A DNA stretch of 64,000 bases from Deltaproteobacteria bacterium (GTDB lineage Bacteria; Desulfobacterota; GWC2-55-46; JADFVP01): NCBI GenBank assembly GCA_024275045.1, contig JAJRZX010000036.1:19615-83614 (forward strand). Direction: 5' to 3'. This document shows, one piece after another, positions 11,825-57,643 of this stretch. How positions within the stretch are numbered: position 1 is the first letter of the stretch; every line of letters starts with the position of its first letter. The translations under genes were made by a program, and so were the position numbers. The notes under the pieces are model-generated. The model was not told the origin of the DNA. It did not search any database and was given only the letters and a program-made list of their open reading frames with translations.

Positions 11825-11833
11825 GTATGGTTC

Positions 11834-12313
11834 TTACCTCTCGAAGGCATGGGTGGATACATGTGACTCAAGGCGCTCGAGAAGGTTCATTACAAAGGGG
11901 GCGAAGACAGCGGTAAGGACGACCTGAACAAGGGTTACGGAGCTGAGCCAGAGGTCGCTGTTAATGGAGGTCATGATGGCGTAGATAAGAAAGACCTTCA
12001 TGGAGGCAAGGCAGAGGGCCGTAAGGGCTCTGACGGCAGGGGCGTTGAAGTGGAGCCTCTTTGTCAGCAGGTATACGGCCACAAATACGGCCATAAAAGA
12101 GAAGGAGGTGGAGCCTATGACACCGCCGATTAATATGTCCTCAAGGTAGCCCATGGCAAAACACACAAACACCCCGGCTGTAGATGGTTTTTTTGCCGCT
12201 ATGTAGAATACGATGATAAGGAGCACATCAGGCAGCGGCACAGAGGGCATTATGGTGCTCTCTATAATGAGATAGAGAATAGATATGAGAAAGAGGCTGA
12301 TGTAATCCCGCAT
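11834..12313 (-). CDS. mreD: Rod shape-determining protein MreD
   Basis: A small polytopic membrane protein sitting between mreC and mrdA. Confidence 0.6.
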   Translation of the reverse strand: MRDYISLFLISILYLIIESTIMPSVPLPDVLLIIVFYIAAKKPSTAGVFVCFAMGYLEDILIGGVIGSTSFSFMAVFVAVYLLTKRLHFNAPAVRALTALCLASMKVFLIYAIMTSINSDLWLSSVTLVQVVLTAVFAPFVMNLLERLESHVSTHAFER

Positions 12314-41681: not shown

Positions 41682-41755
41682 TGGAGCGGGCGATGGGAAT
41701 CGAACCCACGTGTGCAGCTTGGGAAGCTGCCATTCTACCATTGAATCACGCCCGC
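41682..41755 (-). tRNA. tRNA-Gly (anticodon CCC) with encoded CCA
   Basis: The reverse complement folds as a cloverleaf: acceptor GCGGGCG/CGCCCGC, D-arm ATTC..GAAT, anticodon stem GCAGC/GCTGC with loop TTCCCAA, T-arm GTGGG-TTCGATT-CCCAT. Confidence 0.85.
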
Positions 41756-43087: not shown

Positions 43088-43117
43088 AGCGGCTCTGCCT
43101 CTTAGTGGGGCTTTTAT

Positions 43118-44119: not shown

Positions 44120-44172
44120 GTCTAAACCTCTGTTCTTTATAAAAGCAGGGCAGGGGATTAAGAGGCCGTCTC

Positions 44173-45294
44173 ATGCATCGTATATACGCCTTAATAGAGA
44201 GAGATCTCAGGAAATTTATCCGCAACCCCTTTGTGGTTGGCGTATCCATAGCCATGCCCATAGTGTATCTCATTATCATGGGTTCGAGCTTTCAGGGAGA
44301 GCTGAAGAGTCTCTCCGTAGCAGTGGTGGATCAGGATAACGGCGAGTACGGGCGCAGTATCCTCAGTAACCTTCGCGCCGTGCAGCATGGCCCCGCCACT
44401 ATACGCGTTCTTACCGTAACAGACAAGTCCTCTGCCATGGAGGCCCTTGCCGACGGCACCTTCAAGGCCGTGCTTATCATCCCCCGTGATTTTTCAAAGA
44501 AGGTCATACGCGGCGAGACCGCTGATGTGGGGTTATTTCTTGATAACGTGGAGACTATATCCTCGGCTACCATTGAAAAAGCCGTAAGAGGGGCCGTGGG
44601 AGAGGTCTCCGTGGACTTTATTCCCGTTAGAGAGGGCCGTGGTCATGTCTTTGTACGGGCCATAAACACCTACGGCAAGATTGACTACGACCAGGGCCTT
44701 ATACCCGGCGTTGTGATTATGGCCATCTTCATAGGGGCCATGACAACAGGGGTCTTTAACGTGGTGATGGACAGATTTCTGGGTATTGACGAGAGTTATT
44801 TTCTAACCCCCTTATCCAAACTCGATATAGTCGTGGCCCTTGTTATAAGCGGGCTTATGGTCACTACCGTCCTTGCCGTTATCGTGCTCTTTTTAAGCAC
44901 ATTGACGGCAGGCATGTATCTCTGGGAGCTGCTGAGCCTTACGGGTTTTTTCTCTGTTCTTGCCGTATTCATCCTCTCGGCCTTATCGCTTCAGGGCTTG
45001 ATGTTCCTTGTCATGGGACGGGCCACTCACCCGAGGATTCTTGGCATTATGGGAGGGTTTCTTAACGTCATATTTTTCTTTCCAAGCGGGGCCATTTATC
45101 CGGTGGAGAGCTTTCCTCTGTGGCTGCAGTACTTTGCCGCCGTAAACCCCGAGACCTACTCCGTGCACGCCCTTAAGGCCGTAATATTCAAGGGCGCCGG
45201 GCTTGCCACCATTACCGGGGACCTGCTCTTTCTTGCTGGTTTTTCTTTTGTCGCCCTCACGGTAAGTATTATTTCATTTAAGCGAACGCTCTAA
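44173..45294 (+). CDS. ABC-2 type transporter permease
   Basis: Six TM segments and the ABC-2 membrane family pattern. It lies downstream of the ATPase. Confidence 0.8.
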   Translation: MHRIYALIERDLRKFIRNPFVVGVSIAMPIVYLIIMGSSFQGELKSLSVAVVDQDNGEYGRSILSNLRAVQHGPATIRVLTVTDKSSAMEALADGTFKAVLIIPRDFSKKVIRGETADVGLFLDNVETISSATIEKAVRGAVGEVSVDFIPVREGRGHVFVRAINTYGKIDYDQGLIPGVVIMAIFIGAMTTGVFNVVMDRFLGIDESYFLTPLSKLDIVVALVISGLMVTTVLAVIVLFLSTLTAGMYLWELLSLTGFFSVLAVFILSALSLQGLMFLVMGRATHPRILGIMGGFLNVIFFFPSGAIYPVESFPLWLQYFAAVNPETYSVHALKAVIFKGAGLATITGDLLFLAGFSFVALTVSIISFKRTL

Positions 45295-45420: not shown

Positions 45421-45449
45421 TTGACAGGGTTATAAAAATATATTAGAGT
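45421..45449 (+). promoter_or_regulatory. Putative promoter (-35 TTGACA, 17 bp spacer, -10 TAGAGT) driving the S-box leader
   Basis: Sequence match about 25 nt upstream of riboswitch P1. Confidence 0.35.
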
Positions 45450-45473: not shown

Positions 45474-45632
45474 ATCTTATCCAGAGTGGCGGAGGGACTG
45501 GCCCGATGAAACCACAGCAACCGGTACCGTAAAAGGTATGACAGGTGCTAAATCCAGCAGAGACGGTTAAACGTCTCTGGAAGATAAGAAGAATTACTGG
45601 ACACTCTTCTTATTAAAGAAGGGTTTTTTTTT
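45474..45632 (+). ncRNA. SAM-I (S-box) riboswitch with intrinsic terminator
   Basis: P1 runs 5' ATCTTATCCAGAG to 3' CTCTGGAAGATAAGA. Conserved cores present are GGCGGAGGGACTGGCCCGATGAAACC, GCAACC and AGGTGCTAAATCCAGCAGAG. An 8-bp terminator stem with a T9 tract follows. The antiterminator is GATAAGAAG pairing with CTTCTTAT. Confidence 0.85.
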
Positions 45633-45733
45633 GCCCAAGACCGCTCTCTCAATGTGTGAACAGGGGGCGTGGATACAGGTGGTTTTGTAACTTTAAATAT
45701 TTAACGTAAAGTCATTCTACAGGAGATGTTTAT

Positions 45734-46987
45734 ATGAAGTACATGAAAGGATTAAAGTGCAGGGAGTGCGCAAAGACATATCCCCTGGACCCCATCCATG
45801 TCTGCGAGCTCTGTTTCGGCCCACTTGAGGTGGATTATGATTATGATAATATTGCCAAGGTGCTTACAAAAGACCTTATTACAGGCAGGGCGCCCAATAT
45901 GTGGAGATACAGAGAGCTTCTTCCCATAGACGCCGAGCCCTCGGTTGGCCTTAACTCGGGTTTTACGCCTCTTATACGGGCCTATAACCTCGGCGAGGCA
46001 CTTGGTGTAAAGGAGCTTTACATTAAGAACGACGCCGTGAACTTTCCCACGCTCTCCTTTAAGGACCGCGTGGTCTCCGTTGCCATTTCGCGTGCCATAG
46101 AGATGGGGTTTGACGTAATAGCCTGCGCCTCCACGGGCAACCTTGCCAACTCCGTTGCCGCAAATTCCGCTGCCTGCGGCCTTGACAGTTACGTCTTTGT
46201 GCCCTACGACCTTGAGCAGACCAAGATTACGGGCACCATTGTCTACGGCACCAACCTTGTTGGCATAAAAGGCACCTATGACGAGGTGAACAGGCTCTGC
46301 AGCGAGATAGGCGGTAAATACGGCTGGGCCTTTGTAAATATTAACATCAGGCCATTTTACGCAGAGGGTTCAAAGACCTTTGGTTACGAGATAGCCGAGC
46401 AGCTTGGGTGGAAGCTGCCGCAGCACGTTATCGTGCCAATGGCCGGGGGCTCTCTTATTACAAAGATATGGAAGGCATTTAAAGAGTTCAAGGCCCTGGG
46501 TTTTGTTGACAGCGCTCCTGCCAGGATATACGGAGCGCAGGCCACGGGCTGCGCCCCCATAGTAACTGCCGTAAAGGAAAAGAGCGAGCTTATACGTCCG
46601 GTAAAACCCGATACCATCGCAAAGTCTCTTGCTATCGGCAACCCCGCGGACGGCTTTTATTCAGCCCGTACCATTCGCGATAGCGGCGGCTGGGCAGAGG
46701 ACGTATCTGATGATGAGATAATCGAGGCAATGAAGCTCCTGGCCGAGACAGAGGGCATATTCGCCGAGACAGCAGGCGGCGTGACGGTAGGGGTGACAAA
46801 GAAACTCATTGAGCAGGGACGCATTGCCCGTGACGAGTCCATTGTTATCTCTGTTACGGGTAACGGCCTTAAGACTCAGGAGTGCCTTGCGGGCAAGATC
46901 TCAGAGCCTCCTGTAATAGAGGCGAAGCTGGCCGAGTTCGACGCACTTGTGGATGGCGGCAAGATGAAAAAAGCCGCTATCAAATAA
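45734..46987 (+). CDS. Threonine-synthase-family PLP enzyme with an N-terminal zinc ribbon. It may be a genuine threonine synthase or an O-phosphohomoserine-dependent homocysteine synthase (MetM-like).
   Basis: PLP lysine in the SFKDR context, a Trp-synthase-beta fold, and an N-terminal C-x2-C...C-x2-C. It sits directly behind the S-box. Confidence 0.75.
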   Translation: MKYMKGLKCRECAKTYPLDPIHVCELCFGPLEVDYDYDNIAKVLTKDLITGRAPNMWRYRELLPIDAEPSVGLNSGFTPLIRAYNLGEALGVKELYIKNDAVNFPTLSFKDRVVSVAISRAIEMGFDVIACASTGNLANSVAANSAACGLDSYVFVPYDLEQTKITGTIVYGTNLVGIKGTYDEVNRLCSEIGGKYGWAFVNINIRPFYAEGSKTFGYEIAEQLGWKLPQHVIVPMAGGSLITKIWKAFKEFKALGFVDSAPARIYGAQATGCAPIVTAVKEKSELIRPVKPDTIAKSLAIGNPADGFYSARTIRDSGGWAEDVSDDEIIEAMKLLAETEGIFAETAGGVTVGVTKKLIEQGRIARDESIVISVTGNGLKTQECLAGKISEPPVIEAKLAEFDALVDGGKMKKAAIK

Positions 46988-47207: not shown

Positions 47208-48194
47208 ATGACGGACCATTACATAGAGGATAAGACTAACAGGGTTGACCTTGACCTTGAGAAACTCAAAGGAAAGGTTAACTTCAATGACCTTAAATCC
47301 GGGGGGTTTATAAAGCAGAAGCAGAAAGACCTCTTTACCGTGAGGCTGCGCTGTCCGGGCGGCATGATGACCACGGATAAGCTTATTGAGATTTCAAAGC
47401 TTGCCAAAAAATACAGCAAAGAAGGCATGGTGCATTTCAGCTACCGTCAATCCTTTGAGATACTCTATGTGGATTACAGGGACTTTCACGCACTGGTTTC
47501 GGAGCTTGAGGCGCTGGGGCAGAAGGTTGCCTCTTGCGGCCCCCGTGTCAGGGTGCCTACTGCCTGCGGTGGATGCGAGTACAACCCCAACGGACTTATA
47601 GACGCGCAGGCCATGGCCCGTATGGTGGACAAAGAATTCTTCGGCACAAATACGCCCCATAAGTTCAAGACCTCTTTCTCGGGCTGTCCCATTGATTGCT
47701 CAAGAACCGTTGAGATGGACCTTGGTTTTCAGGGCGTTGTAGACCCCGAGTGGGTGCAGGACCTCTGCACGGGCTGCACCATCTGCTCTGAAGCATGTAA
47801 GGAAGGCGCCATTGAGGCCCATCCCGATACAGGTGAACCAATATTCGATGTTAATAAATGCCTCTACTGCGCTGACTGCATTCGCGCCTGCCCAACAGAG
47901 GCTTGGAAGCCCAGGCGTCACGGATTTATCGTACGCATAGGCGGTAAACACGGCCGTCACCCCCTCGAGGGCGTTGAGGTATGCCGCTTTCTCCCTGAAG
48001 ACAAGGTAAGTCATGCCATTGATATGACCGTAAAGTGGTACAAGGCAAACGGCAAGAGTTTCGAGAGGATAGGAAGCACGCTTCAGAGGCTTGGCATGGA
48101 TAGTTATGTTAAGCACATGGCCCCGGTATTTGGAGACATGGCCGTGGTTCCAGAGCATCCGCCTACTGACAGGCCCCTTATAGACCAGGGCTGA
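47208..48194 (+). CDS. Small dissimilatory-type sulfite-reductase-like protein (Dsr-LP/alSir-like) with an inserted 2x[4Fe-4S] ferredoxin domain
   Basis: Putative siroheme/Fe-S Cys cluster ...TACGGCEY...SGCPIDC, followed by two ferredoxin motifs CTGCTICSEAC and CLYCADCIRACP. 328 aa. Confidence 0.55.
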   Translation: MTDHYIEDKTNRVDLDLEKLKGKVNFNDLKSGGFIKQKQKDLFTVRLRCPGGMMTTDKLIEISKLAKKYSKEGMVHFSYRQSFEILYVDYRDFHALVSELEALGQKVASCGPRVRVPTACGGCEYNPNGLIDAQAMARMVDKEFFGTNTPHKFKTSFSGCPIDCSRTVEMDLGFQGVVDPEWVQDLCTGCTICSEACKEGAIEAHPDTGEPIFDVNKCLYCADCIRACPTEAWKPRRHGFIVRIGGKHGRHPLEGVEVCRFLPEDKVSHAIDMTVKWYKANGKSFERIGSTLQRLGMDSYVKHMAPVFGDMAVVPEHPPTDRPLIDQG

Positions 48195-48359: not shown

Positions 48360-48605
48360 GTGGATATGGACGATATAACGGCAAAAGAGAGCATTGATCT
48401 ACGGGGCGTAATGTGCCCCACCAACTTTGTAAAGACAAAGCTTAAGCTTGAGGCCATGGACCCCGGGGATATTCTTGAGGTGGTTCTTGATGCAGGCGAA
48501 CCCATTGCCAACGTGCCAAAGAGCGTCAAGGAAGAGGGACATAAGATTGTCAAGGTAATTAAAGACGACGGCTCATTCAGGATTATGATAGAAGTCTCTG
48601 AGTAG
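48360..48605 (+). CDS. TusA/SirA-like sulfurtransferase (two-layered alpha/beta sandwich)
   Basis: 81 aa with the conserved Cys in LRGVMCPTNFVKTK (TusA CPxP-like position) and a DILEVV-type pattern. Confidence 0.55.
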   Translation: MDMDDITAKESIDLRGVMCPTNFVKTKLKLEAMDPGDILEVVLDAGEPIANVPKSVKEEGHKIVKVIKDDGSFRIMIEVSE

Positions 48606-48634: not shown

Positions 48635-48919
48635 ATGCCAGTAAAGGTAAGGATACCAACACCGCTCAGAAAGATAACAAAGGACAACGATGAGGTTCTG
48701 GCCGAGGGGACTACTGTTACCGAGGTTATAGAGGACCTTGAGAAGAACTACCCCGGCCTCAAAGAGAGGATCTGCGAGGACGACGGCAACCTCCGCCGTT
48801 TTGTAAATCTTTATCTCAATGACGAGGACATACGTTTTAAGGATAACCTCAATACCAGCGTCTCTGATAATGACGAGTTATCCATTATCCCGGCCATAGC
48901 CGGCGGAGGTGCGGGTTGA
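48635..48919 (+). CDS. ThiS/MoaD-family sulfur-carrier protein with the C-terminal extension ...AGGG-AG
   Basis: 94 aa with a beta-grasp pattern. A Gly-Gly is followed by two extra residues (AG) before the stop. The stop overlaps the TTG start of the next gene (GTTGA). Confidence 0.6.
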   Translation: MPVKVRIPTPLRKITKDNDEVLAEGTTVTEVIEDLEKNYPGLKERICEDDGNLRRFVNLYLNDEDIRFKDNLNTSVSDNDELSIIPAIAGGGAG

Positions 48920-49152
48920 AAAAAAAGGTCTATCTTACTTATCCCTCCGATAAGGTTAAGGAGCCTCTTCTTTGCCTGTGTTCGCGCAAATTCAAGGTCT
49001 TAACCAATATCAGGCAGGCTTCTGTAACGGATAAGATTGGAATAGTTGCCCTTGAGCTTGAGGGCGAGGCCTCTGAGATAGAGAAGGCCATGGACTTTTT
49101 TACGGAAAACGGTGTAATGGTCGAGCCTATTGAGATGGATATTATAGTTTAG
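48916..49152 (+). CDS. NIL-domain (MetN C-terminal-like, ACT-fold) small protein
   Basis: 78 aa. RKFKVLTNIRQASVTDKIGIVALELEGE...GVMVEPI parallels E. coli MetN C2 ([30 protein letters not shown]...VKVEVLGYV). It is translationally coupled to the carrier gene. Confidence 0.5.
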   Translation: MKKKVYLTYPSDKVKEPLLCLCSRKFKVLTNIRQASVTDKIGIVALELEGEASEIEKAMDFFTENGVMVEPIEMDIIV

Positions 49153-49178
49153 CTCCGTTCTGGTCTGTATGTTTTCTG

Positions 49179-49230
49179 CCCGCTCTTGAGACCATCTGAA
49201 CACATGGCCGAGAGCGGGTATTTTGTATTC
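49179..49230 (+). terminator. Putative terminator after the NIL gene (stem CCCGCTCT...AGAGCGGG followed by TATTTTGTATT)
   Basis: An 8-bp GC-rich stem with a large loop and a U-rich tail. A promoter-like TTGACA follows at 49271. Confidence 0.35.
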
Positions 49231-49402
49231 ATCAGCCTTCTTTTTTCCCGTAAATTCGCTGAAATTATTCTTGACAAATGCGGTAGGGTATTATAAATTT
49301 ATATACTTGATATTTTTACTAAGGTAATAGAAATACCTTATAAAAAAAGGGGTTTTACATGGACTCTCTATTATTGGTCCAATACCGCGGAAGAGGTCTT
49401 GA

Positions 49403-50362
49403 ATGAGAAAAAACAATACACTGGAGAGTTTTGAGGCAGAGAAAGGACCCTCGGCAGGCAAGGCACGGTTCTCGGCCCTTGAGCTTGTTGGTAATACGCC
49501 TCTTGTGAGGATAAACAGGATTACAAAAGACCTGCCGAGCGGTGTTGAGGTATACGCCAAGCTTGAGTCCGCCAACCACGGCGGCTCTGTAAAAGACAGA
49601 CCCGCGCTGCGCATGATTGAAGACGCGGAGAAGAGCGGGCGGCTTACAAAGGAAAAGATAATACTGGACTCCACATCAGGCAACACGGGCATTGCCTATG
49701 CCTGGATAGGCGCCGTAAAGCAACACCGCGTGGAGCTTGTGGTGCCGGAGAACGTAAGCTCAGAGCGAAAAAAGATACTTGACGCATTTGGGGCGAGGGT
49801 GATTTTCTCAAGCCCTTTTGAGGGCTCTGACGGGGCCATACGCCTTGCGTGGAAGCTATACGTGGCTAACCCCGAAAAGTACTGCAAGCTTGACCAGTAC
49901 AACAACCCCTCAAACCCCCTGGCCCATTACTACGGCACAGGGCTTGAGATTATAGAGCAGACAGGCGGGGCCATTACCCACTTTGTCACTACCATCGGCA
50001 CAGGGGGAACCATAATGGGCACCATGCGCAGGCTAAAGGAATTTAACAGCAATATTCAGGTCATCGCTGTAGAGCCTGATAACCCCATGCACGGCCTTGA
50101 GGGTCTTAAACACATGGCCTCATCAATAGTGCCGGGCATATATCACGAGGACTCTCTTGACGGCAAGGTCCCTGCCTCAACAGAGGAGTCTTATGAGATG
50201 ACCAAGAGGCTCGCGAGAGAAGAGGGGCTTCTTGTGGGCCAGTCTTCAGGGGCGGCCATGCTTGGAGCCCTTAAGGTGGCAAGCGGCCTTACCGAGGGAG
50301 TGGTGGTAACCATCTTTCCCGATGGCGGAGACAAATACCTCTCCACACGTCTCTGGGAGTAG
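49403..50362 (+). CDS. Cysteine synthase (CysK/CysM family; possibly thiocarboxylate-dependent, CysM-like)
   Basis: PLP lysine in the SVKDR context, and GNTGIA, GTGGT motifs. 319 aa. Confidence 0.85.
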   Translation: MRKNNTLESFEAEKGPSAGKARFSALELVGNTPLVRINRITKDLPSGVEVYAKLESANHGGSVKDRPALRMIEDAEKSGRLTKEKIILDSTSGNTGIAYAWIGAVKQHRVELVVPENVSSERKKILDAFGARVIFSSPFEGSDGAIRLAWKLYVANPEKYCKLDQYNNPSNPLAHYYGTGLEIIEQTGGAITHFVTTIGTGGTIMGTMRRLKEFNSNIQVIAVEPDNPMHGLEGLKHMASSIVPGIYHEDSLDGKVPASTEESYEMTKRLAREEGLLVGQSSGAAMLGALKVASGLTEGVVVTIFPDGGDKYLSTRLWE

Positions 50363-50695
50363 GGTACATAGGGCGGCAGGGGGGACGTGCGCAGGGGCAA
50401 GTGGGTGCCGGGGTGAGATAACCGGGGTAGTGCGGAGTTTATATGTAGTGGTGCTTTGGGTCCAATAGGAAGTAAGTACCCCATGACGCACGATTTAATT
50501 GTTTTCATTACGTATTGATTTACAAGACCTTCTTAACTTTAAAATTTAAAATCTGAGATTTTTTTAAAGGGCCTTTGCGAGACCCTTTTAGAGTTTTTGC
50601 AGGTAAGAGCATTTTTTTCTACAGACAGATACGCGTAAGAAGAATATGGGGGCAAAGAGCCCTCTTAACTTAAAAATAAACTTAAGGGGTAAGTC

Positions 50696-51163
50696 ATGGG
50701 TCTGCTCTCAAAGTTCAGGAAAAAAGAAAAATTGTATGTTCCAAAGGAATTTTATGACGATATGATTGAGCACGCCAAGCTGGAGTATCCGCATGAGTGC
50801 TGCGGCGTTCTTATAGGCAACTCCATGATGGGGGACAGGAAGATATTTCACACCGAGAGGTGCACTAACCTCAATAAAGAGCGCGCCCATGACAGGTATC
50901 TCATGGACCCCAGAGAGATAAACCTCGCTGATAAGGGTGCACGCGCGCAGTCCCTTGAGATTATGGGGTTTTACCACTCGCACCCGGATCATCCCGACAG
51001 GCCCTCGGAGTACGACCGTGAGGTGGCCCACCCCGGGTACTCGTACATAATACTCTCGGTAAAGGACGGCAAAGAGGTTACGGCAAAGTCCTGGACATTT
51101 GCCGAGCTTGATGAGCCCTTTGTGGAAGAGGCCATTGAGGTAACAGTATCAAAGTGGAAGTAA
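50696..51163 (+). CDS. JAMM/MPN+ zinc metalloprotease (Mec+/HcyD/QbsD-like)
   Basis: The complete JAMM motif E...HSH-x7-S-x2-D (HECCG ... HSHPDHPDRPSEYD). Confidence 0.75.
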   Translation: MGLLSKFRKKEKLYVPKEFYDDMIEHAKLEYPHECCGVLIGNSMMGDRKIFHTERCTNLNKERAHDRYLMDPREINLADKGARAQSLEIMGFYHSHPDHPDRPSEYDREVAHPGYSYIILSVKDGKEVTAKSWTFAELDEPFVEEAIEVTVSKWK

Positions 51164-51286: not shown

Positions 51287-52096
51287 ATGGACTTTACAGA
51301 TGAGCAGATAGAGCGTTACTCAAGACACATTATACTGCCCGAGGTAGGGGGAAAAGGTCAGACAAAACTCCTTGAGTCCAAGGTCTTTGTCCTTGGAGCA
51401 GGAGGGCTTGGCTCACCGGCGCTTCTGTACCTTGCAGCCGCGGGTGTTGGCACAATAGGCATCGCAGACGGCGATGTGGTGGATGTAAGTAACCTGCAGC
51501 GTCAGATAATCCATGACAACAATACAGTGGGCATGGCAAAGGTGGAGAGCGCTCGTAAATCCATCGAGGCCCTTAACCCCGATGTGGTGGTTAATACCTT
51601 TAACAGCCGTCTTGGTATAGAGAATATCCGCGAGGTGCTCCGTGACTACGATGTTGTGCTTGACGGCTCTGATAACTTTCCAACGCGTTACCTTATGAAC
51701 GACGCCTCCTTTTTTGAGGGCAAGACCCTTATCTCGGGCAGCATGTTCAGGTTTGACGGACAGGTCTCTGTCTTTAAGCCGGCTGATGGGTACCCCTGCT
51801 ACAGGTGCCTCTATCCCGAGCCGCCGCCAAAGGGCATGGTACCGTCCTGTCAGGAGGCCGGTGTGCTTGGCGCTCTTGCCGGTGTTATCGGTGTGCTGCA
51901 GGCTGTTGAGGCAATTAAAGAGATACTCTCCATAGGCAAGGTCCTTGCAGGAGAGCTCTTGATATTTGACGCCCTTGGTATGAGCTTTCGTAAAGTCAAG
52001 GTGCGGCGCGACCCTGATTGCGCGCTCTGCGGCGAAAATGCCACTATAAAGGAACTCTCGCTCTATGAGCAGGCACCCTGTGAGCTGCGTACCTGA
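51287..52096 (+). CDS. ThiF/MoeB-family E1-like adenylyltransferase (no rhodanese domain)
   Basis: Nucleotide loop GAGGLGSP, an RQ motif, and Zn-binding C-x2-C...C-x2-C (PCYRC, DCALCG). Confidence 0.85.
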   Translation: MDFTDEQIERYSRHIILPEVGGKGQTKLLESKVFVLGAGGLGSPALLYLAAAGVGTIGIADGDVVDVSNLQRQIIHDNNTVGMAKVESARKSIEALNPDVVVNTFNSRLGIENIREVLRDYDVVLDGSDNFPTRYLMNDASFFEGKTLISGSMFRFDGQVSVFKPADGYPCYRCLYPEPPPKGMVPSCQEAGVLGALAGVIGVLQAVEAIKEILSIGKVLAGELLIFDALGMSFRKVKVRRDPDCALCGENATIKELSLYEQAPCELRT

Positions 52097-52235: not shown

Positions 52236-53462
52236 GTGATAAGAAAAAATTACTTTAAGAACCCCGGTGCGTTGAAGATAGACCTTATGCTGAGGGGGGC
52301 GGCCATTGAAGACCCTGTTGCCAAGGCGCGGGCCTGCGGGGCCACCGGCATAGACATACTCCTGCCTAAAAAAATACTTGTAAACATACCCTGCGAAGAC
52401 TGGTTTACCGTGCGCTCGCCTTACGTGATTAAAAAATCCGCCGGTAAAAAGGGGTATATCCTTACCAACGGCAGTGACAGCGTACCTGTAAGCATACTTG
52501 ATAGACCGGAGTTTTACAGCCGCAAGACCGCTACCGGGGTGCCTTTTGGTGATATTGCCGTAACGCACGGCAGTTACACCGTTATAACGCCTGATAAGAG
52601 GTGCGGTTTTTTTAAATCCAGCGCCCAGTGCAGGTACTGCGCCGGGAACTTCAGCACCGATGCCGCTGAGAATGGCGGACGCGTCTATACCGTAGAAGAG
52701 GTCCTTGAGACAGTTAAGGCCGTGCTCAAGGAAAAGGCGTCAGGCATAATATACCTCTCCATAGGTTTTAGCGATGGCGATGACGGGGGCATTAAGTTTC
52801 TCGAACCCTATGTAAAGGCGATTAAGTCCCATTTTAACTGCCTTGTCGCGGTAGAGGCCCTGCCCCCTGCCAGTAACGAGTGGATAGACAGGGCATACGC
52901 CTTTGGCGTTGACTCAATACTTTATAATCTGGATATCTTTGATAAGGAGCTTTTTTCTGTAATATGCCCGGGCAGGGCCGGCCTTATAGGAAGACAGCGT
53001 ACTCTTGATGCCCTTAAATACGCCGCTGGTATCTTTGCAAACGGCACAGTGGCCTCGCACCTCATAGTTGGCCTTGAACCCCCGGGCTCTACGATTATGG
53101 GCATTGATTTTCTTACGGACTCAGGTGTTGTGCCTATACTGCCCATATTCCGCCCCTCAAAGGACAGGCCCCTTGATGTGACGGACCTTGATGCAGAGGT
53201 GATAATACCGGTGTACCGGCACCTGTACAAGACGCTTAAGAAAAAAGGCATCAACTTCAACTGGGTCCGTGATATAAGCATGGTTACTACCCCTGTTGAG
53301 GGCAGATATCTTTTAAATGACGAGAAGAGCTCATCGCCGTTTCTTGATAATTTTTACGAGTCCAGGCTTGGCATGAAAACAGCCTGGGGGCTAAGCGCAA
53401 TCAGAAGACGGCTAAGGGTTAAAAAAATTAAAAAAGAGGACCCCCCCGAGGGTTCTCCGTAG
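52236..53462 (+). CDS. Hypothetical protein with a C-x9-C-x2-C cysteine cluster followed by a TIM-barrel-like region. Possibly a non-canonical radical-SAM/Fe-S enzyme.
   Basis: 408 aa containing CGFFKSSAQCRYCAGNF. No canonical C-x3-C-x2-C is present. Glycine-rich (GGG-like) segments follow. Confidence 0.35.
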   Translation: MIRKNYFKNPGALKIDLMLRGAAIEDPVAKARACGATGIDILLPKKILVNIPCEDWFTVRSPYVIKKSAGKKGYILTNGSDSVPVSILDRPEFYSRKTATGVPFGDIAVTHGSYTVITPDKRCGFFKSSAQCRYCAGNFSTDAAENGGRVYTVEEVLETVKAVLKEKASGIIYLSIGFSDGDDGGIKFLEPYVKAIKSHFNCLVAVEALPPASNEWIDRAYAFGVDSILYNLDIFDKELFSVICPGRAGLIGRQRTLDALKYAAGIFANGTVASHLIVGLEPPGSTIMGIDFLTDSGVVPILPIFRPSKDRPLDVTDLDAEVIIPVYRHLYKTLKKKGINFNWVRDISMVTTPVEGRYLLNDEKSSSPFLDNFYESRLGMKTAWGLSAIRRRLRVKKIKKEDPPEGSP

Positions 53463-53480: not shown

Positions 53481-54905
53481 GTGAGAGTAGAGATTGACAG
53501 AAGACCGATATGGGTAATTCTCGCCGGCAAGGCGCTGAGACCTGTTTTCTTTCTCTTGCTTGCACTGGGGTTTATCCTCTTTCTTCAGCTTCCCGTGCCT
53601 GAGGGCCTTGGGACAGGGGGGATGAGGGCAATAGCTGTTTTTTTGCTATGCCTCGTGCTCTGGGTCTCAAACGCAGTGCCCGTGGCTATTACCGGGCTCT
53701 TTGCCATAGTGCTTGTCCCGCTCCTCGGGGTGCTGCCGCGCGGGGCCACGTACTCGCTATTTGGCAATGAGGCAGTGTTTTTTATACTGGGGGCCTTTAT
53801 ACTCTCAGGCGCGGTCATGCAGTCAGGGCTCTCGAACAGAGTGGCCCTGCGCCTCATGGAGAAGCACGGCGGGTCTCCGAAACGCCTTATAATAAGCATT
53901 TTTTTGCTTGCAGCGGCCCTCTCGTTTGTTATGAGCGAGCATGCCGTTGCGGCCATGCTCTTTCCCATTGTGCTTGAGATATCAAAGAGTCTGAAACTCA
54001 GGCCCGGCGAGTCCAATTACGGAAAGCTCCTCTTCTTCGCCCTTGCCTGGGGTTCTGTCATAGGCGGGGTTGGGACTTTTCTTGGCGGAGCGCGTGTGCC
54101 GCTGGCAATGGGAATACTCAAAGAAACAACGGGCTCTACCATAGGTTTTTTGGATTATACCGTGGCCGTGGCGCCCCTTGTGGTGGTCCTCTTAATCGTG
54201 GGGTATATCGTGCTGACGAGGTTTTTTCCCGTTGATATCGATGGTGTGGAGAACGCCCACAAGGTAATCGTGAGGCGCGCGCGGGCCCTTGGAAAGGTAC
54301 GCCCAAGAGAGTACGCCGTTGGTTTAATACTTGGCATTACCATATTGCTCTGGATAACAATCGGCAAGACCGTAGGGCTTGCCGCCATTGCCATGTTATC
54401 TGTTATGGCCCTATTTGTCCTTAAACTCGTAAAATGGCGCGAGATTGAGGAGTACGTGAACTGGGGCATAATACTCATGTACGGCGGCGCCATTATACTC
54501 GGCACTGCCCTTGACAGGAGCGGCGCCGCAAAGTGGATGGTAGACGCCATTATGACGCAGTGGGCTCAGACGCCCATAACGGTTATAGCCCTCTTCTCGC
54601 TCCTGGCAATACTGCTAACAGAGTCCATGAGCAACGCCGCGGTTATCGCTGTTCTGCTGCCCGTGAGCATTGGCATGGCGGGCCGTACCAATATGAGCCC
54701 CGAGGTCCTTACCTATGTGGTGGCCATTCCCGCGGGGCTGGCCTTTATGCTGCCCATGAGTACCCCGGCTAACGCCATTGCCGTATCAAGCGATTACATA
54801 TCGGTTCGTGATATGGCAAAGGGCGGGGTGATAATGTTTTTAACCTCCTGGGTTACATTTAACCTCATGGCGCACTTTTATTGGCCCCTCATAGGGCTGA
54901 GATAG
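53481..54905 (+). CDS. DASS/SLC13-family (ArsB/NhaD-fold) anion transporter, plausibly a sulfate permease
   Basis: 474 aa with about 12-14 TM helices and an internal-repeat architecture typical of CitT/SLC13. It sits in the sulfate-assimilation context. Confidence 0.7.
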   Translation: MRVEIDRRPIWVILAGKALRPVFFLLLALGFILFLQLPVPEGLGTGGMRAIAVFLLCLVLWVSNAVPVAITGLFAIVLVPLLGVLPRGATYSLFGNEAVFFILGAFILSGAVMQSGLSNRVALRLMEKHGGSPKRLIISIFLLAAALSFVMSEHAVAAMLFPIVLEISKSLKLRPGESNYGKLLFFALAWGSVIGGVGTFLGGARVPLAMGILKETTGSTIGFLDYTVAVAPLVVVLLIVGYIVLTRFFPVDIDGVENAHKVIVRRARALGKVRPREYAVGLILGITILLWITIGKTVGLAAIAMLSVMALFVLKLVKWREIEEYVNWGIILMYGGAIILGTALDRSGAAKWMVDAIMTQWAQTPITVIALFSLLAILLTESMSNAAVIAVLLPVSIGMAGRTNMSPEVLTYVVAIPAGLAFMLPMSTPANAIAVSSDYISVRDMAKGGVIMFLTSWVTFNLMAHFYWPLIGLR

Positions 54906-54988: not shown

Positions 54989-55459
54989 ATGATGACCAAT
55001 ACTAAGATACTGCTTGTTTTATCCACTCATGTGTACTCTGATAAGGCCATTGAGTACGCCGTCAGGCGGGCCAGGGAGGAAGAGAGGCAGCTTGTAGCTT
55101 TTTTTCTTCTTGAGTCTGAGCTTGCCGAGGAGGCGTCTGAGAGGTTCTCGGACATTGGTTTTACAGGCGACAGGCCCTCGGCCACATTATCTGAGTCTCT
55201 TATGCGCGAGTACCGGCAGAGGGGGTATGAGGCCCTTGGCAGGGCGCAGATAAAGGCCATGGAGGATGGTGTGGACTTTGAGCCTCTGTTAAAAGAGGGG
55301 CCTTATGTATCTACCATACTTGAGGTAATAAGGGCACACGGTATAGGTCTTACCGTTATACAGAGGCGAAAGGAGAGGTCCTTTCTGCATTACTTTAAAA
55401 AAGGTTTATCCGTAAAGGTTAAAGAGGCGGCTTCATGCGAGGTCGTTATCATCGAGTAA
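54989..55459 (+). CDS. UspA-like alpha/beta domain protein (ATP-motif-less)
   Basis: 156 aa with weak USP-like periodicity. No glycine-rich ATP loop. Confidence 0.3.
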   Translation: MMTNTKILLVLSTHVYSDKAIEYAVRRAREEERQLVAFFLLESELAEEASERFSDIGFTGDRPSATLSESLMREYRQRGYEALGRAQIKAMEDGVDFEPLLKEGPYVSTILEVIRAHGIGLTVIQRRKERSFLHYFKKGLSVKVKEAASCEVVIIE

Positions 55460-55486: not shown

Positions 55487-56191
55487 ATGGCAGGAAAGCA
55501 GTGGAGTGAAGAAGAACTTAAGGCAGTATCCGATGAGCTTGAAGATAAGGGACCCCAGGCCGCCATTCAATGGGCTGTGGATAATTTCGATACACAGGAC
55601 TTATCTCTTGCCTGTAGTTTCGGCGCCGAGGACGTTGCTCTTGTGGATATGCTTGTGAAGATAAAACCTGATGCAAGGATTTTTTATCTTGATACAAATA
55701 AGCTCTTCAAGGAGACCATTGATGTAATGGAGCGCCTTAAAGAGAGGTACAATATTAACCCTGAGAAGTATACCTCAAAGATGAGCCTTGCCGAGCAGGC
55801 CGCCGAGTTCGGCGATGAGCTCTGGGCAAAGGATCCGAAGAAGTGCTGCGACATAAGAAAGATAACACCTCTTAAAGAAGCTCTCTCAGGGCTTAGTGCC
55901 TGGATTACCGGTATAAGAAGGGATCAGGCACCGGCAAGGGCCAACGCCCCTGTAGTTGGCTGGGACGCCATGTTCAACCTTGTGAAGATAAACCCGCTGG
56001 TAAAGTGGACGAGCGAGGATGTGTGGGATTATATCCGCGCCAATAACGTGCCTTACAATGAGCTTCATGACAAGAATTACCCCTCAATAGGCTGTGAGCC
56101 ATGCACCAATGAGGTGAAGCCAGGCGAGGACCCAAGGGCCGGAAGATGGGCCGGATTTAAGAAGACAGAGTGCGGACTTCACGACAAGTAA
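55487..56191 (+). CDS. cysH: Assimilatory adenylyl-sulfate (APS) reductase, Fe-S type (CysH family)
   Basis: The PAPS_reduct fold plus a Cys-Cys pair (KKCCDIRK) and C-x2-C (GCEPCT) for the [4Fe-4S] cluster. The C-terminal ECGLH carries the catalytic Cys. Confidence 0.85.
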   Translation: MAGKQWSEEELKAVSDELEDKGPQAAIQWAVDNFDTQDLSLACSFGAEDVALVDMLVKIKPDARIFYLDTNKLFKETIDVMERLKERYNINPEKYTSKMSLAEQAAEFGDELWAKDPKKCCDIRKITPLKEALSGLSAWITGIRRDQAPARANAPVVGWDAMFNLVKINPLVKWTSEDVWDYIRANNVPYNELHDKNYPSIGCEPCTNEVKPGEDPRAGRWAGFKKTECGLHDK

Positions 56192-56284: not shown

Positions 56285-57448
56285 GTGGATACATTAATCG
56301 CCCCTCATGGCGGGGTGCTTATAAACAGGGTCGTAGAGGGTAAGGCCCGTCTTGATCTGGAAAAAGCCTCGATAAATATGAACACCCTTGTTCTTAATGA
56401 GAGGGAGATCTCAGACCTTGAGATGATAGCAACAGGCGGTTTCAGCCCTCTTGCCGGTTTTATGTGTCACGATGATTATCACTCTGTGATGGATACCATG
56501 ACGCTCACTAATGGTCTGCCCTGGACCATACCTGTTACTCTCTCTGCCACAGAGGCAGAGGCGGCTGAGCTGAGAGAGGGTACGGACGTGGCCCTTAATA
56601 ACGAGAACGGCGAGCTTCTGGCCATCCTTCATCTTGAGCAGATATTCAAGCACGACCCTGAGAAAGAGGCCCTTCGCGTTTACGGAACCCCTGATGAGGC
56701 ACACCCAGGTGTGAAAAACGTCTATGCAATGGGCTCCCAACTCCTTGGCGGCAAGATATCTCTGCTTGAGCGTACCGAGTATGACCAGTTTAACGAGTAC
56801 CGCAGAGACCCCATTGAGACAAGGCAGCTCTTTAAGAAGAACGGCTGGCGCCGCGTTGTGGGTTTTCAGACCAGAAACCCCATACACAGGGCCCATGAGT
56901 ACATTCAAAAATGCGCGCTTGAGACAGTTGACGGTCTGATGATACATCCTCTTGTAGGCGAGACAAAGTCCGATGATATACCCGCGGATGTGCGTATGAA
57001 CTGCTACGAGACGCTTATGGCCAAGTACTATCCAGCCGACAGGGTGGTGCTCTCCGTATATCCCGCGGCCATGCGCTACGCAGGGCCCCGCGAGGCTGTC
57101 TTTCACGCACTTATACGCAAGAACTACGGATGCACCCACTTTATCGTTGGCAGAGACCATGCTGGCGTAGGCGGCTACTACGGAACCTTTGACGCTCATC
57201 TTATATTTAACAAGTTTGAGCCCGAGGCCATAGGCATAGCCCCCATGTTCTTTGATTATACCTTTCACTGCAAGAGTTGCGGCGGCATGGCCTCGTACAA
57301 GACATGCCCCCATGATTCGTCTGAGCACATTACCTTATCAGGCACAAAGGTGCGGGAGATGCTGAGGGCCGGCACGTGTCCGCCGCCCGAGTTCTCAAGG
57401 CCCGAGGTTGCAGAGGTCCTTATTAAGGCCATGAAATCCGGCGCATAA
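56285..57448 (+). CDS. sat: Sulfate adenylyltransferase (ATP sulfurylase)
   Basis: QTRN...H motif ([13 protein letters not shown]), a PUA-like N-domain and GRDHAG. A GTG start is assumed. Confidence 0.9.
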
Positions 57449-57608
57449 GGGAGTTCATGCCGTGGTACCCGGCAGCTCCCCCGTGGGGCTGCCAGTGGTA
57501 TTGCACAAGCTGAGAGAATACCTGCAGGCAAGCGGTGCCGAGAGGCAAATAAAGTGATTGCCTGCTCCGTTACCGGCAGTTCAGCGAGCACAATTCAATA
57601 TATGTGAG

Positions 57609-57643
57609 AGGAGGGGGGTGATTAGCCCCCTTCCTTTTTTTTT
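57609..57643 (+). terminator. Rho-independent terminator downstream of sat
   Basis: A G/C stem (GGAGGGGGG...GCCCCCTTCC) followed by T9. Confidence 0.6.

What the first reader, a model, noticed from the sequence alone, without database searches (positions are those of the whole stretch)
52236..53462. An uncharacterised 408-aa protein with a C-x9-C-x2-C motif and TIM-barrel-like periodicity sits between the E1 and the sulfate transporter
It lacks the canonical radical-SAM C-x3-C-x2-C. Its single clustered Cys triad (CGFFKSSAQCRYC) sits just ahead of a region with alternating beta/alpha periodicity and Gly-rich loops (GGRVYTVEE..., SDGDDGGIKF), reminiscent of non-canonical radical-SAM or Fe-S TIM-barrel enzymes. 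Its location inside a sulfur-trafficking cluster makes it a candidate for an unassigned step such as sulfur mobilisation, Fe-S assembly or siroheme provision.
Basis: inference. Interest (0 to 1): 0.5.

Follow-up and report, generated by a model that had tools for sequence, protein, structure and literature searches.

The report
Variant radical-SAM protein paired with sulfur transporter
This gene encodes an uncharacterised iron-sulfur "radical SAM" type protein with an unusual cysteine spacing; across many uncultured bacteria it sits directly in front of an anion transporter gene inside an operon that makes cysteine and homocysteine from sulfate, so it is probably an unrecognised helper at the sulfur-entry step, but its reaction is unknown.

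Summary

It is gene 9 of a 13-gene operon under a SAM-I riboswitch: ThrC-like, Sir, TusA, ThiS, NIL, CysM, JAB, ThiF, X, DASS, Usp, CysH, Sat.

Across 90 loci and at least six gene arrangements, a DASS transporter gene follows X directly in 78 of 81 testable cases. ThiS, JAB and ThiF usually lie upstream. X::DASS and JAB::X fusion proteins exist.

No conserved auxiliary-cluster cysteines exist, so LipA/BioB-type sulfur insertion is not supported. Siroheme or Fe-S provision gains no support.

About a quarter of clade representatives have lost the Cys triad, and the five such loci examined keep the same context. A conserved C-terminal LRRxLRV tail marks the clade.

Best reading (about 0.4): an active single-cluster radical-SAM accessory protein coupling DASS-mediated sulfur uptake to the ThiS carrier pathway. 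Its substrate is unknown. A regulatory SAM-sensing subunit is the main rival.

The parts
45421..45449 (+). sigma-70-like promoter candidate (TTGACA-17-TAGAGT) for the operon
   Evidence: Consensus scan, 10 of 12 matches. It lies just upstream of the riboswitch. This is a consensus match only.
45474..45590 (+). SAM-I riboswitch aptamer (RF00162) controlling the operon
   Evidence: Rfam hit of 85.6 bits against a gathering score of 44.4, E 1.6e-19, full model length. The same element is found upstream of homologous operons in L003, L015, L019 and L024 (lineage 1) and in L083 and L084 (lineage 2).
45603..45634 (+). terminator-like hairpin plus T-run, the probable riboswitch expression platform
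   Evidence: Terminator scan: 9-bp stem at 45603-45624 followed by TTTTTTTT. Its role as the expression platform is inferred.
45734..46987 (+). ThrC-like PLP enzyme (417 aa) with an N-terminal Cys-rich segment; probable MetM-type homocysteine synthase
   Evidence: PALP domain, E 2e-68; threonine synthase models are the best NCBIfam hits; weak NinF hit at residues 8-32. The MetM analogy comes from the citation in PMC12172450 and is inferred, not tested.
47208..48194 (+). small sulfite reductase (NIR_SIR plus inserted 2x[4Fe-4S] ferredoxin domain)
   Evidence: Pfam NIR_SIR, NIR_SIR_ferr and Fer4 hits.
48360..48605 (+). TusA/SirA-type sulfurtransferase (81 aa)
   Evidence: PF01206, E 2.4e-21.
48635..48919 (+). 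ThiS/MoaD-type sulfur-carrier protein (94 aa), C-terminus ...PAIAGG-GAG
   Evidence: PF02597, E 1.6e-18. Orthologues end PAIAGG plus 0-3 extra residues.
48916..49152 (+). stand-alone NIL-domain protein (78 aa)
   Evidence: PF09383, E 3.3e-13.
49403..50362 (+). CysM-type cysteine synthase
   Evidence: PALP domain; TIGR01138 cysM 367.6 bits (below its 394.2 cutoff) and cysKM family 337.8 bits (below its 344.15 cutoff).
50696..51163 (+). JAB/Mec-type metalloprotease
   Evidence: Prok-JAB, E 2.2e-25.
51287..52096 (+). MoeB/ThiF-type E1 adenylyltransferase without a rhodanese domain
   Evidence: PF00899, E 1.2e-78; 269 aa; NF004281 318.9 bits, above its cutoff of 266.
52236..53462 (+). the finding: variant radical-SAM protein 'X' (408 aa)
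52602..52640 (+). C123-x8-C132-x-Y134-C135 cluster-binding motif
   Evidence: Invariant in 120/120 homologues, including Y134. Cx8Cx2C is dominant in the wider family.
53403..53420 (+). conserved basic C-terminal tail, R390 R391 x L393 R394 V395 (LRRxLRV)
   Evidence: At least 90% conserved in an alignment whose members are 29-69% identical to the window protein. It marks the clade and is retained even in Cys-less members. In the P0164 fusion it leads directly into the first TM segment of DASS.
53481..54905 (+). DASS-family anion symporter (474 aa), presumed sulfate importer; fixed downstream partner of X
   Evidence: TIGR00785 260.4 bits (cutoff 198.6); Na_sulph_symp and CitMHS hits. It is immediately downstream of X in 78 of 81 testable loci. 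The substrate is not established.
54989..55459 (+). universal stress protein family member
   Evidence: PF00582, E 4.4e-8. It is conserved after DASS in lineage 1.
55487..56191 (+). CysH (APS/PAPS reductase)
   Evidence: NF002537 282.4 bits (cutoff 154).
56285..57448 (+). Sat (ATP sulfurylase)
   Evidence: NF003166 570.5 bits (cutoff 387).
57606..57638 (+). strong intrinsic-terminator-like hairpin ending the operon
   Evidence: 14-bp stem with 7 GC pairs, followed by a T-run.

Best explanation
X is a genuine and probably active single-cluster radical-SAM-fold protein of the catalogued 'variant rSAM' class. C123, C132 and C135 (Cx8Cx2C) would hold a [4Fe-4S] cluster whose free iron binds SAM. 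Y134 and an HLIVGLE strand would provide the usual SAM contacts. The BioB/LipA-like core is preceded by a family-specific N-terminal beta-rich domain and followed by a conserved basic C-terminal helix (LRRxLRV).

It is the ninth gene of a 13-gene operon that is switched off by SAM through a riboswitch. The operon converts imported sulfate to sulfide (Sat, CysH, Sir, TusA), loads it on a ThiS-type carrier (ThiF, JAB), and uses it to make cysteine (CysM) and homocysteine (ThrC-like, NIL).

I propose that X is a lineage-specific accessory component at the entry of this pathway. It would work as a cytoplasmic partner of the DASS importer encoded directly after it, probably docking through its C-terminal tail. 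It would use SAM-dependent chemistry on one cluster, with C244 as a likely hydrogen-atom or thiol partner, to process or license the incoming sulfur compound for hand-over to the ThiS/ThiF machinery.

Shown: family membership, fold, motif conservation, operon structure, riboswitch, conserved adjacency and fusions. Inferred: cluster and SAM binding, catalytic competence, physical association with DASS and ThiS, and the nature of the reaction, which remains unknown.

For: Purifying selection on the cluster site: the triad and Y134 are invariant in 120/120 homologues. The triad is also kept in lineage 2, in the Zetaproteobacterial and Myxococcales copies, and in both fusion proteins.

Operon and regulation. 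The riboswitch is conserved in two lineages.

Linkage: the same 13-gene order is found at 57-89% identity. Rearranged operons still keep X followed by DASS (L083-L085, L082, L086, L088-L090, L093). DASS is directly downstream in 78 of 81 testable loci, ThiF is upstream in 63/67, JAB in 56/61, CysM in 55/57 and ThiS in 42/47.

Fusions: X::DASS (P0164, 881 aa, with a clean in-frame linker; P0228 is probably a second case) and JAB::X (P0133). The C-terminal tail is among the most conserved features of the clade.

The published survey of ThiS/JAB/E1 sulfur-assimilation operons lists ABC sulfate transporters and no radical SAM gene. So X and DASS appear together as the distinguishing additions.
Against: No experiment exists for any member of this family, so the reaction is a guess.

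Fourteen of 61 tail-bearing cluster representatives lack an intact Cys triad. The five such loci examined (L088-L092) keep the same context, with ThiS and/or DASS adjacent. The conserved role therefore cannot depend on radical chemistry everywhere.

X is less conserved than most of its operon partners. Its median identity is 63.9%, against 78-80% for ThiF and CysM, across the same 27 genomes. That fits an accessory or regulatory protein as well as an enzyme.

Two contexts (L079 and L087) have ThiS-JAB-X without DASS, so the transporter is not an obligate partner.

Each fusion is seen on a single metagenomic contig and could be a stop-codon loss or a sequencing error. Most of the 90 loci belong to one lineage, so the counts are not phylogenetically independent.

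From my own knowledge, characterised ThiS-dependent Cys/Hcy pathways need no such enzyme. The DASS substrate is not established.
Confidence: 0.4

Rival explanations
1. X is a regulatory or adaptor subunit and not a turnover enzyme. It is a radical-SAM-fold protein that binds SAM (the pathway end-product signal) and/or reports Fe-S or redox status. Through its C-terminal tail it would gate the DASS importer, or scaffold ThiS and JAB at the transporter. This would give fast feedback on sulfur uptake, on top of the SAM riboswitch.
For: The C-terminal tail and the N-terminal LKxDLxLRG motif are more conserved across the clade than the cluster ligands. Cys-less derivatives keep the ThiS-X-DASS context. 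X evolves faster than the core enzymes of the operon. X::DASS fusions exist. The operon is already SAM-regulated in two lineages. From my own knowledge, end-product-binding cytoplasmic domains that trans-inhibit importers are well known, for example the NIL domains of MetNI.
Against: The triad, Y134 and the SAM-type strand motif are strictly kept in the window's lineage and in most other lineages, as expected for a working radical SAM site. No radical-SAM-fold protein is known to act as a sensor (own knowledge). Cys-less members could not sense SAM through a cluster either, so they argue against this model as much as against catalysis. The ThiS-JAB-X contexts without DASS (L079, L087) are not explained by transporter gating.
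Confidence: 0.28
2. X is a non-radical [4Fe-4S]-dependent sulfurtransferase. The free iron of the three-Cys cluster would bind hydrosulfide (from Sir/TusA or from uptake), or the ThiS C-terminal thiocarboxylate, and pass sulfur to or from adenylated ThiS. This follows the logic of the TtuA/TtuB tRNA-thiolation system.
For: ThiS lies close to X in most arrangements and is directly upstream and translationally coupled in L088, L090, L091 and L093. JAB::X fusion. ThiS-JAB-X cassette without a nearby E1 in L079, and no ThiF within 8 kb upstream in L090. The E1 lacks a rhodanese domain. The long Cx8 loop is predicted with low confidence (residues 127-131), and such a flexible loop could admit a protein tail; that last point is inference.
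Against: The fold and motifs are those of SAM-binding radical enzymes, not of the PP-loop ATPase fold of TtuA-type enzymes. TusA is already present for sulfur relay. From my own knowledge, characterised CysO and HcyS systems load sulfide without such a factor. Cys-less members cannot work this way.
Confidence: 0.12
3. X is a radical C-S lyase. DASS would import a dianionic organosulfonate such as sulfolactate, cysteate or sulfoacetate. X would abstract a hydrogen atom to trigger beta-elimination of sulfite, which then enters Sir to ThiS. This would be a radical-SAM counterpart of the glycyl-radical sulfonate lyases.
For: X followed by DASS is the most constant pair, and the two can be fused. 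One cluster plus one widely conserved extra Cys (C244, in 35 of 47 triad-bearing representatives) suits hydrogen-atom-return chemistry. Conserved arginines (R247, R255, R306 and the tail) could bind anionic substrates. From my own knowledge, DASS carriers typically move dicarboxylate-like dianions.
Against: This is entirely inferential. Lineage 1, L086 and L089 place Sat, CysH or CysDN next to X-DASS, which points to sulfate as the cargo. Lineages 2 and 3 show no sulfite reductase within the 8-9 kb examined. The ThiS-JAB-X cassettes lack a transporter.
Confidence: 0.08
4. One reading: X is a LipA/BioB-like sulfur-inserting enzyme, or it supplies siroheme or Fe-S clusters to the sulfite reductase.
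For: The nearest solved folds are lipoyl synthases and biotin synthase. There is a weak LipS2 hit, E 1e-6. A siroheme-dependent Sir is in the window operon.
Against: All characterised sulfur inserters carry a second cluster held by three further conserved cysteines (PMC9585515). X's clade has none, and some members have only 3-4 Cys in total. The LipS2 score is 28 bits against a cutoff of 270. There is no similarity to siroheme enzymes, and the X context persists in operons without Sir.
Confidence: 0.04

Closest known systems
NCBIfam NF045502 'variant_rSAM' domain family; RadicalSAM.org clusters with Cx8Cx2C motifs (Megaclusters 4-6-1, -3, -5, -6)
   Same: The window protein scores above the curated cutoff (169.7 vs 125, residues 60-310). 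Cx8Cx2C is listed as a recognised variant of the radical SAM motif (PMC9477430) and dominates the family.
   Different: The family model is only a 'domain' descriptor with no assigned function. The window protein belongs to a distinct clade marked by the C-terminal LRRxLRV tail and the sulfur-operon/DASS context, which the more distant members lack. I could not map it to a specific RadicalSAM.org cluster.
TIGR04043 MSMEG_0568-family radical SAM protein (the radical SAM member of Nit1C nitrilase clusters)
   Same: It is the second-best named model. The alignment spans the N-terminal domain and the core (residues 16-340, 115 bits). It shares the non-canonical long-spacer motif and is also of unknown function.
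   Different: The score is far below the cutoff (115 vs 303.7). Relatives at 28% identity or less, which carry CxFWxxxxxCKFC-type motifs and which I take (untested) to be the MSMEG_0568-like ones, lack the C-terminal tail. The genomic context is sulfur assimilation, not a nitrilase/GNAT/AIR-synthase cluster.
Lipoyl synthase (LipA/LIAS), LipS1/LipS2 and biotin synthase: sulfur-inserting radical SAM enzymes
   Different: They use canonical Cx3Cx2C plus a sacrificial auxiliary cluster bound by three more Cys. X has Cx8Cx2C and no conserved auxiliary ligands. Structure-based sequence identity is 14-20%. No lipoyl or biotin pathway genes are nearby.
ThiS/JAB/E1/SirA sulfur-assimilation operons (type '4e' of Iyer, Burroughs and Aravind 2006); characterised examples are W. 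succinogenes HcyS/HcyD/HcyF/MetY and M. tuberculosis CysO/CysM/Mec (own knowledge); Streptomyces MetM/MetO
   Same: The window operon has ThiS, JAB, an E1 without rhodanese, TusA (SirA), Sat, CysH and Sir, matching the published description. ThiS carries residues beyond GG that would need JAB trimming. A ThrC-like gene behind a SAM riboswitch parallels metM.
   Different: The published type has ABC sulfate transporters and O-acetylhomoserine sulfhydrylase, and no radical SAM gene. Here a DASS carrier plus X, a ThrC-like enzyme and a NIL protein take those places.
TtuA/TtuB-type [4Fe-4S] sulfurtransferases (own knowledge); a mechanistic analogy only
   Same: A three-Cys [4Fe-4S] cluster with an open iron site works together with a ThiS-like thiocarboxylate carrier.
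   Different: The fold is unrelated (PP-loop ATPase vs radical-SAM barrel). There is no sequence or structural similarity here. The analogy was not tested.

Membership tests
Radical SAM superfamily (PF04055) | Profile score above Pfam's gathering threshold | tested here: met
   30.7 bits against 29.5, residues 131-278. The margin is small.
Radical SAM superfamily (PF04055) | Canonical Cx3Cx2C cluster-binding motif | tested here: not met
   No Cx3Cx2C is present. The only clustered triad is C123-x8-C132-x2-C135. This spacing is a recognised variant of the motif (PMC9477430).
Radical SAM superfamily (PF04055) | Partial (beta/alpha)6 TIM-barrel core resembling solved radical SAM enzymes | tested here: met
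Radical SAM superfamily (PF04055) | SAM-contact motifs: an aromatic residue before the third Cys, and a GxIxGxxE-like strand | tested here: met
   Y134 is invariant and H275-L-I-V-G279-L-E281 is conserved. Assigning these residues to SAM contacts is by inspection and general knowledge, not by a docked model.
Radical SAM superfamily (PF04055) | Binds [4Fe-4S] and reductively cleaves SAM to 5'-deoxyadenosyl radical | not testable with these tools
   This needs anaerobic biochemistry.
NCBIfam NF045502 variant_rSAM | Score above the curated cutoff | tested here: met
   169.7 bits against 125, E 8.8e-50.
TIGR04043 MSMEG_0568-family radical SAM (Nit1C) | Score above the curated cutoff | tested here: not met
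   115.3 bits against 303.7.
TIGR04043 MSMEG_0568-family radical SAM (Nit1C) | Nit1C gene neighbourhood (nitrilase, GNAT, AIR-synthase-like, flavoprotein) | tested here: not met
   The neighbours are sulfur-assimilation genes. The Nit1C composition is taken from the papers found and from my own knowledge.
Sulfur-inserting radical SAM enzymes (LipA, LipS1/2, BioB) | Second (auxiliary) Fe-S cluster bound by three further conserved Cys | tested here: not met
   C53 and C202 are confined to the close lineage and are individually replaceable. Many clade members have only the triad, with or without C244. Some have only 3-4 Cys in total. The requirement is documented in PMC9585515.
Sulfur-inserting radical SAM enzymes (LipA, LipS1/2, BioB) | Family profile score above cutoff | tested here: not met
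   LipS2 NF053743 scores 28.4 against 270. BioB TIGR00433 scores 10.9 against 225.
ThiS/JAB/E1 sulfur-assimilation operon (Iyer et al. 2006, type 4e) | ThiS/MoaD-like carrier, JAB peptidase, E1 lacking rhodanese, and SirA/TusA | tested here: met
   All four are present in the window. The definition is from PMC1779556.
ThiS/JAB/E1 sulfur-assimilation operon (Iyer et al. 2006, type 4e) | Sulfate activation and reduction genes (ATP sulfurylase, PAPS/APS reductase, sulfite reductase) | tested here: met
   Sat, CysH and Sir are in the same operon.
ThiS/JAB/E1 sulfur-assimilation operon (Iyer et al. 2006, type 4e) | ABC-type sulfate/sulfite transporter and O-acetylhomoserine sulfhydrylase | tested here: not met
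   They are replaced by a DASS carrier (plus X) and by a ThrC-like enzyme with NIL.
Glycyl-radical-enzyme activases | Adjacent glycyl radical enzyme; small protein with a canonical motif | tested here: not met

The most novel reading that the evidence does not exclude
A radical-SAM-fold protein is a dedicated cytoplasmic partner, and occasionally a fused domain, of a DASS-family anion transporter. It would either gate sulfur uptake in response to SAM or Fe-S status, or carry out radical processing of the imported sulfur compound at the mouth of the transporter and hand the sulfur to a ThiS-type carrier. Either way it would be the first enzyme-transporter or sensor-transporter coupling of this kind. 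The derived Cys-less forms, with GGHRY in place of the triad and a new CYHxGxxC site, would have swapped the cluster for another metal site or become pseudoenzymes.
Probability: 0.3. Interest if true: 0.75.

Novelty: new variant of a known kind. Interest (0 to 1): 0.55.

Why it matters
ThiS-type thiocarboxylate pathways for cysteine and homocysteine are considered biochemically complete. Here a conserved extra radical-SAM-fold protein is locked to the pathway's transporter in at least 143 species-level genomes of uncultured Thermodesulfobacteriota ("Deltaproteobacteria") and in other phyla. That points to a missing function at the sulfur-entry step in anaerobic subsurface bacteria.

It also offers an experimentally tractable entry into a whole variant radical-SAM family (NF045502 / MSMEG_0568-like, more than 1000 clusters at 50% identity) in which I found no characterised member.

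If the protein proves to gate or serve a transporter, that would be a new role for the radical SAM fold. If it proves to be an ordinary accessory enzyme, it still adds a defined component and a clean gene-context rule (X followed by DASS, behind a SAM riboswitch) for annotating these operons.

Tried and rejected
1. Sequence searches of the PDB, with the profile and with the single sequence at E up to 10, found no meaningful hit. Only fold comparison sees the relationship.

3. Foldseek against AFDB50 was unavailable.

4. A genome scan with the diverse alignment A2 failed because no stretch was conserved enough. The closer alignment A1 was used instead, which biases the loci towards lineage 1.

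5. Literature probes for Cx8Cx2C, MSMEG_0568, and radical SAM together with thiocarboxylate, JAB or ThiS found no description of this protein or association. Alternative spellings of the motif returned only plant DUF26 papers.

6. An auxiliary-cluster hypothesis based on C53, C202 and C244 was rejected on co-variation.

7. Hidden RNA elements or small genes in the long NIL-CysM and CysM-JAB gaps: no Rfam hit at E up to 1 and no credible ORF.

8. Glycyl-radical activase, siroheme synthesis and Fe-S assembly roles were considered and rejected for lack of partner genes or homology.

9. The roughly 165-aa ORF before X in lineage 2 was tested as a divergent JAB. It is not one, and it shows only weak similarity to the ThiF N-terminus.

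10. The metagenome scan for the Cys-less group yielded only 3 loci. That is enough to confirm the context but not to map the group's spread.
Full report
OBSERVATION. Its seven cysteines are at positions 34, 53, 123, 132, 135, 202 and 244. The gene lies between a MoeB/ThiF-type E1 (51287-52096) and a DASS / Na-sulfate-symporter-family transporter (53481-54905). The triad and the aromatic Y134 are invariant in all 120 homologues listed at 57% identity or more; C244 is 98% conserved, C202 90% and C53 86%. The feature is therefore real and under selection.

THE OPERON. The surrounding genes form one co-directional unit. It starts with a promoter-like site (45421-45449), a SAM-I riboswitch (RF00162, 85.6 bits, 45474-45590) and a terminator-like hairpin with a T-run (45603-45624). 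Then come a ThrC-like PLP enzyme, a small sulfite reductase, TusA, a ThiS-type carrier ending ...PAIAGG-GAG, a NIL-domain protein, CysM, a JAB protease, ThiF, X, DASS, Usp, CysH and Sat, followed by a strong terminator at 57606-57638. This is the ThiS/JAB/E1/SirA sulfur-assimilation operon type described by Iyer et al. 2006 as type 4e (PMC1779556). From my own knowledge it was characterised biochemically as HcyS/HcyD/HcyF in Wolinella succinogenes and CysO/CysM/Mec in Mycobacterium tuberculosis. The ThrC-like gene behind a SAM riboswitch parallels the MetM homocysteine synthase of Streptomyces, as cited in PMC12172450. The published type has ABC sulfate transporters and O-acetylhomoserine sulfhydrylase, and the paper never mentions a radical SAM gene. 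Here a DASS carrier, X, the ThrC-like enzyme and NIL are the distinguishing parts.

CONSERVATION OF CONTEXT. The identical 13-gene order recurs in homologues at 57-89% identity. A scan of GTDB species representatives found 143 genomes with a relative. Almost all are uncultured 'Deltaproteobacteria'/Thermodesulfobacteriota MAGs, with outliers in a Myxococcales MAG and a Mariprofundaceae MAG. Further arrangements were found, as follows.
- Lineage 2 (37-40% identity): riboswitch-ThiF-ThrCl-ThiS-CysM-NIL-[about 165-aa ORF]-X-DASS, with no Sat, CysH or Sir within 9 kb.
- Mariprofundaceae (32%): CysK-ThiF-Sir::TusA fusion-X-DASS.
- A third arrangement: ThrCl-NIL-CysM-JAB-ThiS-X-DASS (L088, L090, L093).
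- Rrf2-Sat-X-DASS (L089).
- TusA-X::DASS-CysD-CysN (L086).
- ThiS-JAB-X without a transporter in the Myxococcales MAG (L079) and in L087.
Over 90 distinct loci, a DASS gene starts within 400 nt downstream on the same strand in 78 of 81 testable cases. The exceptions are L079, L087 and L016; in L016 a nucleotidyltransferase-like ORF, possibly a toxin-antitoxin insertion, precedes the contig end. ThiF is upstream in 63/67, JAB in 56/61, CysM in 55/57 and ThiS in 42/47. These counts are dominated by one lineage and are not phylogenetically independent. The weight lies in the persistence of the pair through at least six different gene orders. The SAM riboswitch is conserved in lineages 1 and 2.

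FUSIONS. P0164 (881 aa) is X fused to DASS through a clean in-frame linker that joins X's basic C-terminal helix to the transporter's first hydrophobic segment. P0228 looks like a second such fusion. P0133 (575 aa) is JAB fused to X, preceded by ThiS. Each rests on one metagenomic contig, so stop-codon loss or sequencing error cannot be excluded.

FEATURES THAT CONSTRAIN MECHANISM.
(i) No auxiliary cluster. Characterised sulfur inserters (LipA, LipS1/2, BioB) need a second cluster bound by three more cysteines (PMC9585515). In X's clade, C53 and C202 are confined to the close lineage and are individually replaced in about 20% of close homologues. Many members have only the triad, with or without C244, and some have only 3-4 Cys in total. 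C244, in a CPGR motif, is the only other widely conserved Cys (35 of 47 triad-bearing representatives).
(ii) A C-terminal LRRxLRV tail and an N-terminal LKxDLxLRG motif define the clade and are absent from the more distant relatives at 28% identity or less.
(iii) Fourteen of 61 tail-bearing representatives lack an intact triad. The clearest group (P0163, P0181, P0195, P0215) has GGHRY in its place, a degenerate GxIxGxxE strand and a new invariant CYHxGxxC. Yet it still sits between ThiS and DASS (L088, L090-L092), and the triad-less P0132 sits between Sat and DASS.
(iv) Across 27 genomes carrying all 13 genes, X's median identity to the window protein is 63.9%. That compares with 79.6% for ThiF, 78.0% for CysM, 77.6% for ThrC-like and 69.2% for DASS; only JAB and Usp are lower.

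INTERPRETATION. For the window protein, the strict conservation of the triad, Y134 and the SAM-type strand argues that it binds a [4Fe-4S] cluster and SAM. Its constant position in front of DASS, the fusions and the conserved tail argue that it works with the transporter. Its frequent adjacency or fusion to ThiS and JAB argues that it also touches the carrier system. My best-supported reading (about 0.4) is a single-cluster radical SAM accessory protein that couples DASS-mediated sulfur entry to the ThiS/ThiF pathway. Its substrate is unknown.

The main rival (about 0.28) is a regulatory or adaptor subunit in which SAM and cluster binding is a signal and not a catalytic step. This is favoured by points (ii) to (iv). 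It is disfavoured by the intact catalytic-type motifs and by the lack of any precedent.

Lesser rivals are a non-radical cluster-mediated sulfurtransferase acting on ThiS with TtuA-like logic (about 0.12) and a radical sulfonate C-S lyase acting on the DASS cargo (about 0.08).

NOVELTY AND VERDICT. The protein is a member of an already modelled but functionally blank radical SAM family, and the operon type is known. What appears undescribed in the literature I could search is a clade-specific X-DASS pairing embedded in ThiS-dependent, SAM-riboswitch-controlled sulfur assimilation, with fusions and Cys-less derivatives. I rate it a new variant of a known kind, of moderate interest (0.55). It is a well-defined, testable lead and not a surprise in itself. 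It would become more interesting if a radical-SAM-fold protein turns out to serve or gate a transporter.

Noticed in passing
window 45474-45590 (+), with hairpin 45603-45624: A SAM-I riboswitch (RF00162, 85.6 bits) plus a terminator-like hairpin precedes the 13-gene sulfur operon. The same element precedes homologous operons in two lineages whose gene orders differ (L003, L015, L019, L024, L083, L084). A SAM riboswitch governing a complete sulfate-to-Cys/Hcy operon of about 12 kb is notable in itself.
   Followed up: partly
window 45734-46987 (+): The ThrC-like PLP enzyme has an N-terminal Cys-rich, zinc-ribbon-like segment (weak NinF hit, residues 8-32). It always co-occurs with ThiS and a stand-alone NIL protein. 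It is probably a MetM-type homocysteine synthase that uses O-phosphohomoserine and a carrier thiocarboxylate, and not a threonine synthase, although it passes threonine synthase model cutoffs.
   Followed up: partly
window 48635-48919 (+); L001, L003, L083, L087, L088, L090, L093: The ThiS-type carriers end PAIAGG followed by 0-3 variable residues (GAG in the window; VS, MC, R, AA, V, C or L elsewhere; none in L079). This implies C-terminal trimming by the co-encoded JAB protease before activation.
   Followed up: partly
P0163, P0181, P0195, P0215; loci L088, L090-L092: A subgroup of X homologues has replaced the Cys triad with an invariant GGHRY and gained an invariant CYHxGxxC pair plus conserved His residues, while keeping the ThiS-X-DASS context. 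This could be a new metal site or a pseudoenzyme.
   Followed up: partly
L082 1075-3480: In a Mariprofundaceae MAG the assimilatory sulfite reductase is fused at its C-terminus to a TusA domain (801 aa). This suggests direct hand-off of reduced sulfur from Sir to TusA.
   Followed up: no
L083 8505-9008, L085 8523-9008: In lineage 2 a roughly 165-aa ORF, translationally coupled to X, shows only weak similarity to the N-terminal 68 residues of ThiF (41% identity). It occupies the slot where JAB or ThiF lies in lineage 1. Its function is unknown.
   Followed up: partly
L016, about 11500-12100: In the one lineage-1 locus where X is not followed by DASS, a nucleotidyltransferase-like ORF, possibly the start of a toxin-antitoxin (MNT/HEPN-type) insertion, lies after X before the contig ends.
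   Followed up: no
window 50363-50695 and 49153-49402: There are unusually long intergenic gaps inside the operon (333 nt between CysM and JAB, 250 nt between NIL and CysM). They have no Rfam match at E up to 1 and no credible small ORF. A promoter-like site lies at 49271-49299. In L001 the CysM-JAB gap is only 45 nt.
   Followed up: partly
P0247, P0249 (distant relatives): More distant members of the variant radical SAM family are fused to ATP-grasp domains, which indicates other, unrelated functional contexts within NF045502-like proteins.
   Followed up: no
window 41682-41755 (-) and 42035-45294 (+): A tRNA-Gly(CCC) gene and a three-gene HlyD-like / ABC ATPase / ABC-2 permease efflux module lie immediately upstream of the sulfur operon. 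They are not conserved next to it in other loci.
   Followed up: no
L004 11385-11996: Some lineage-1 operons insert an APS kinase between Usp and a more divergent CysH (about 35-39% identity). This suggests a switch from APS- to PAPS-dependent reduction within the same operon frame.
   Followed up: no
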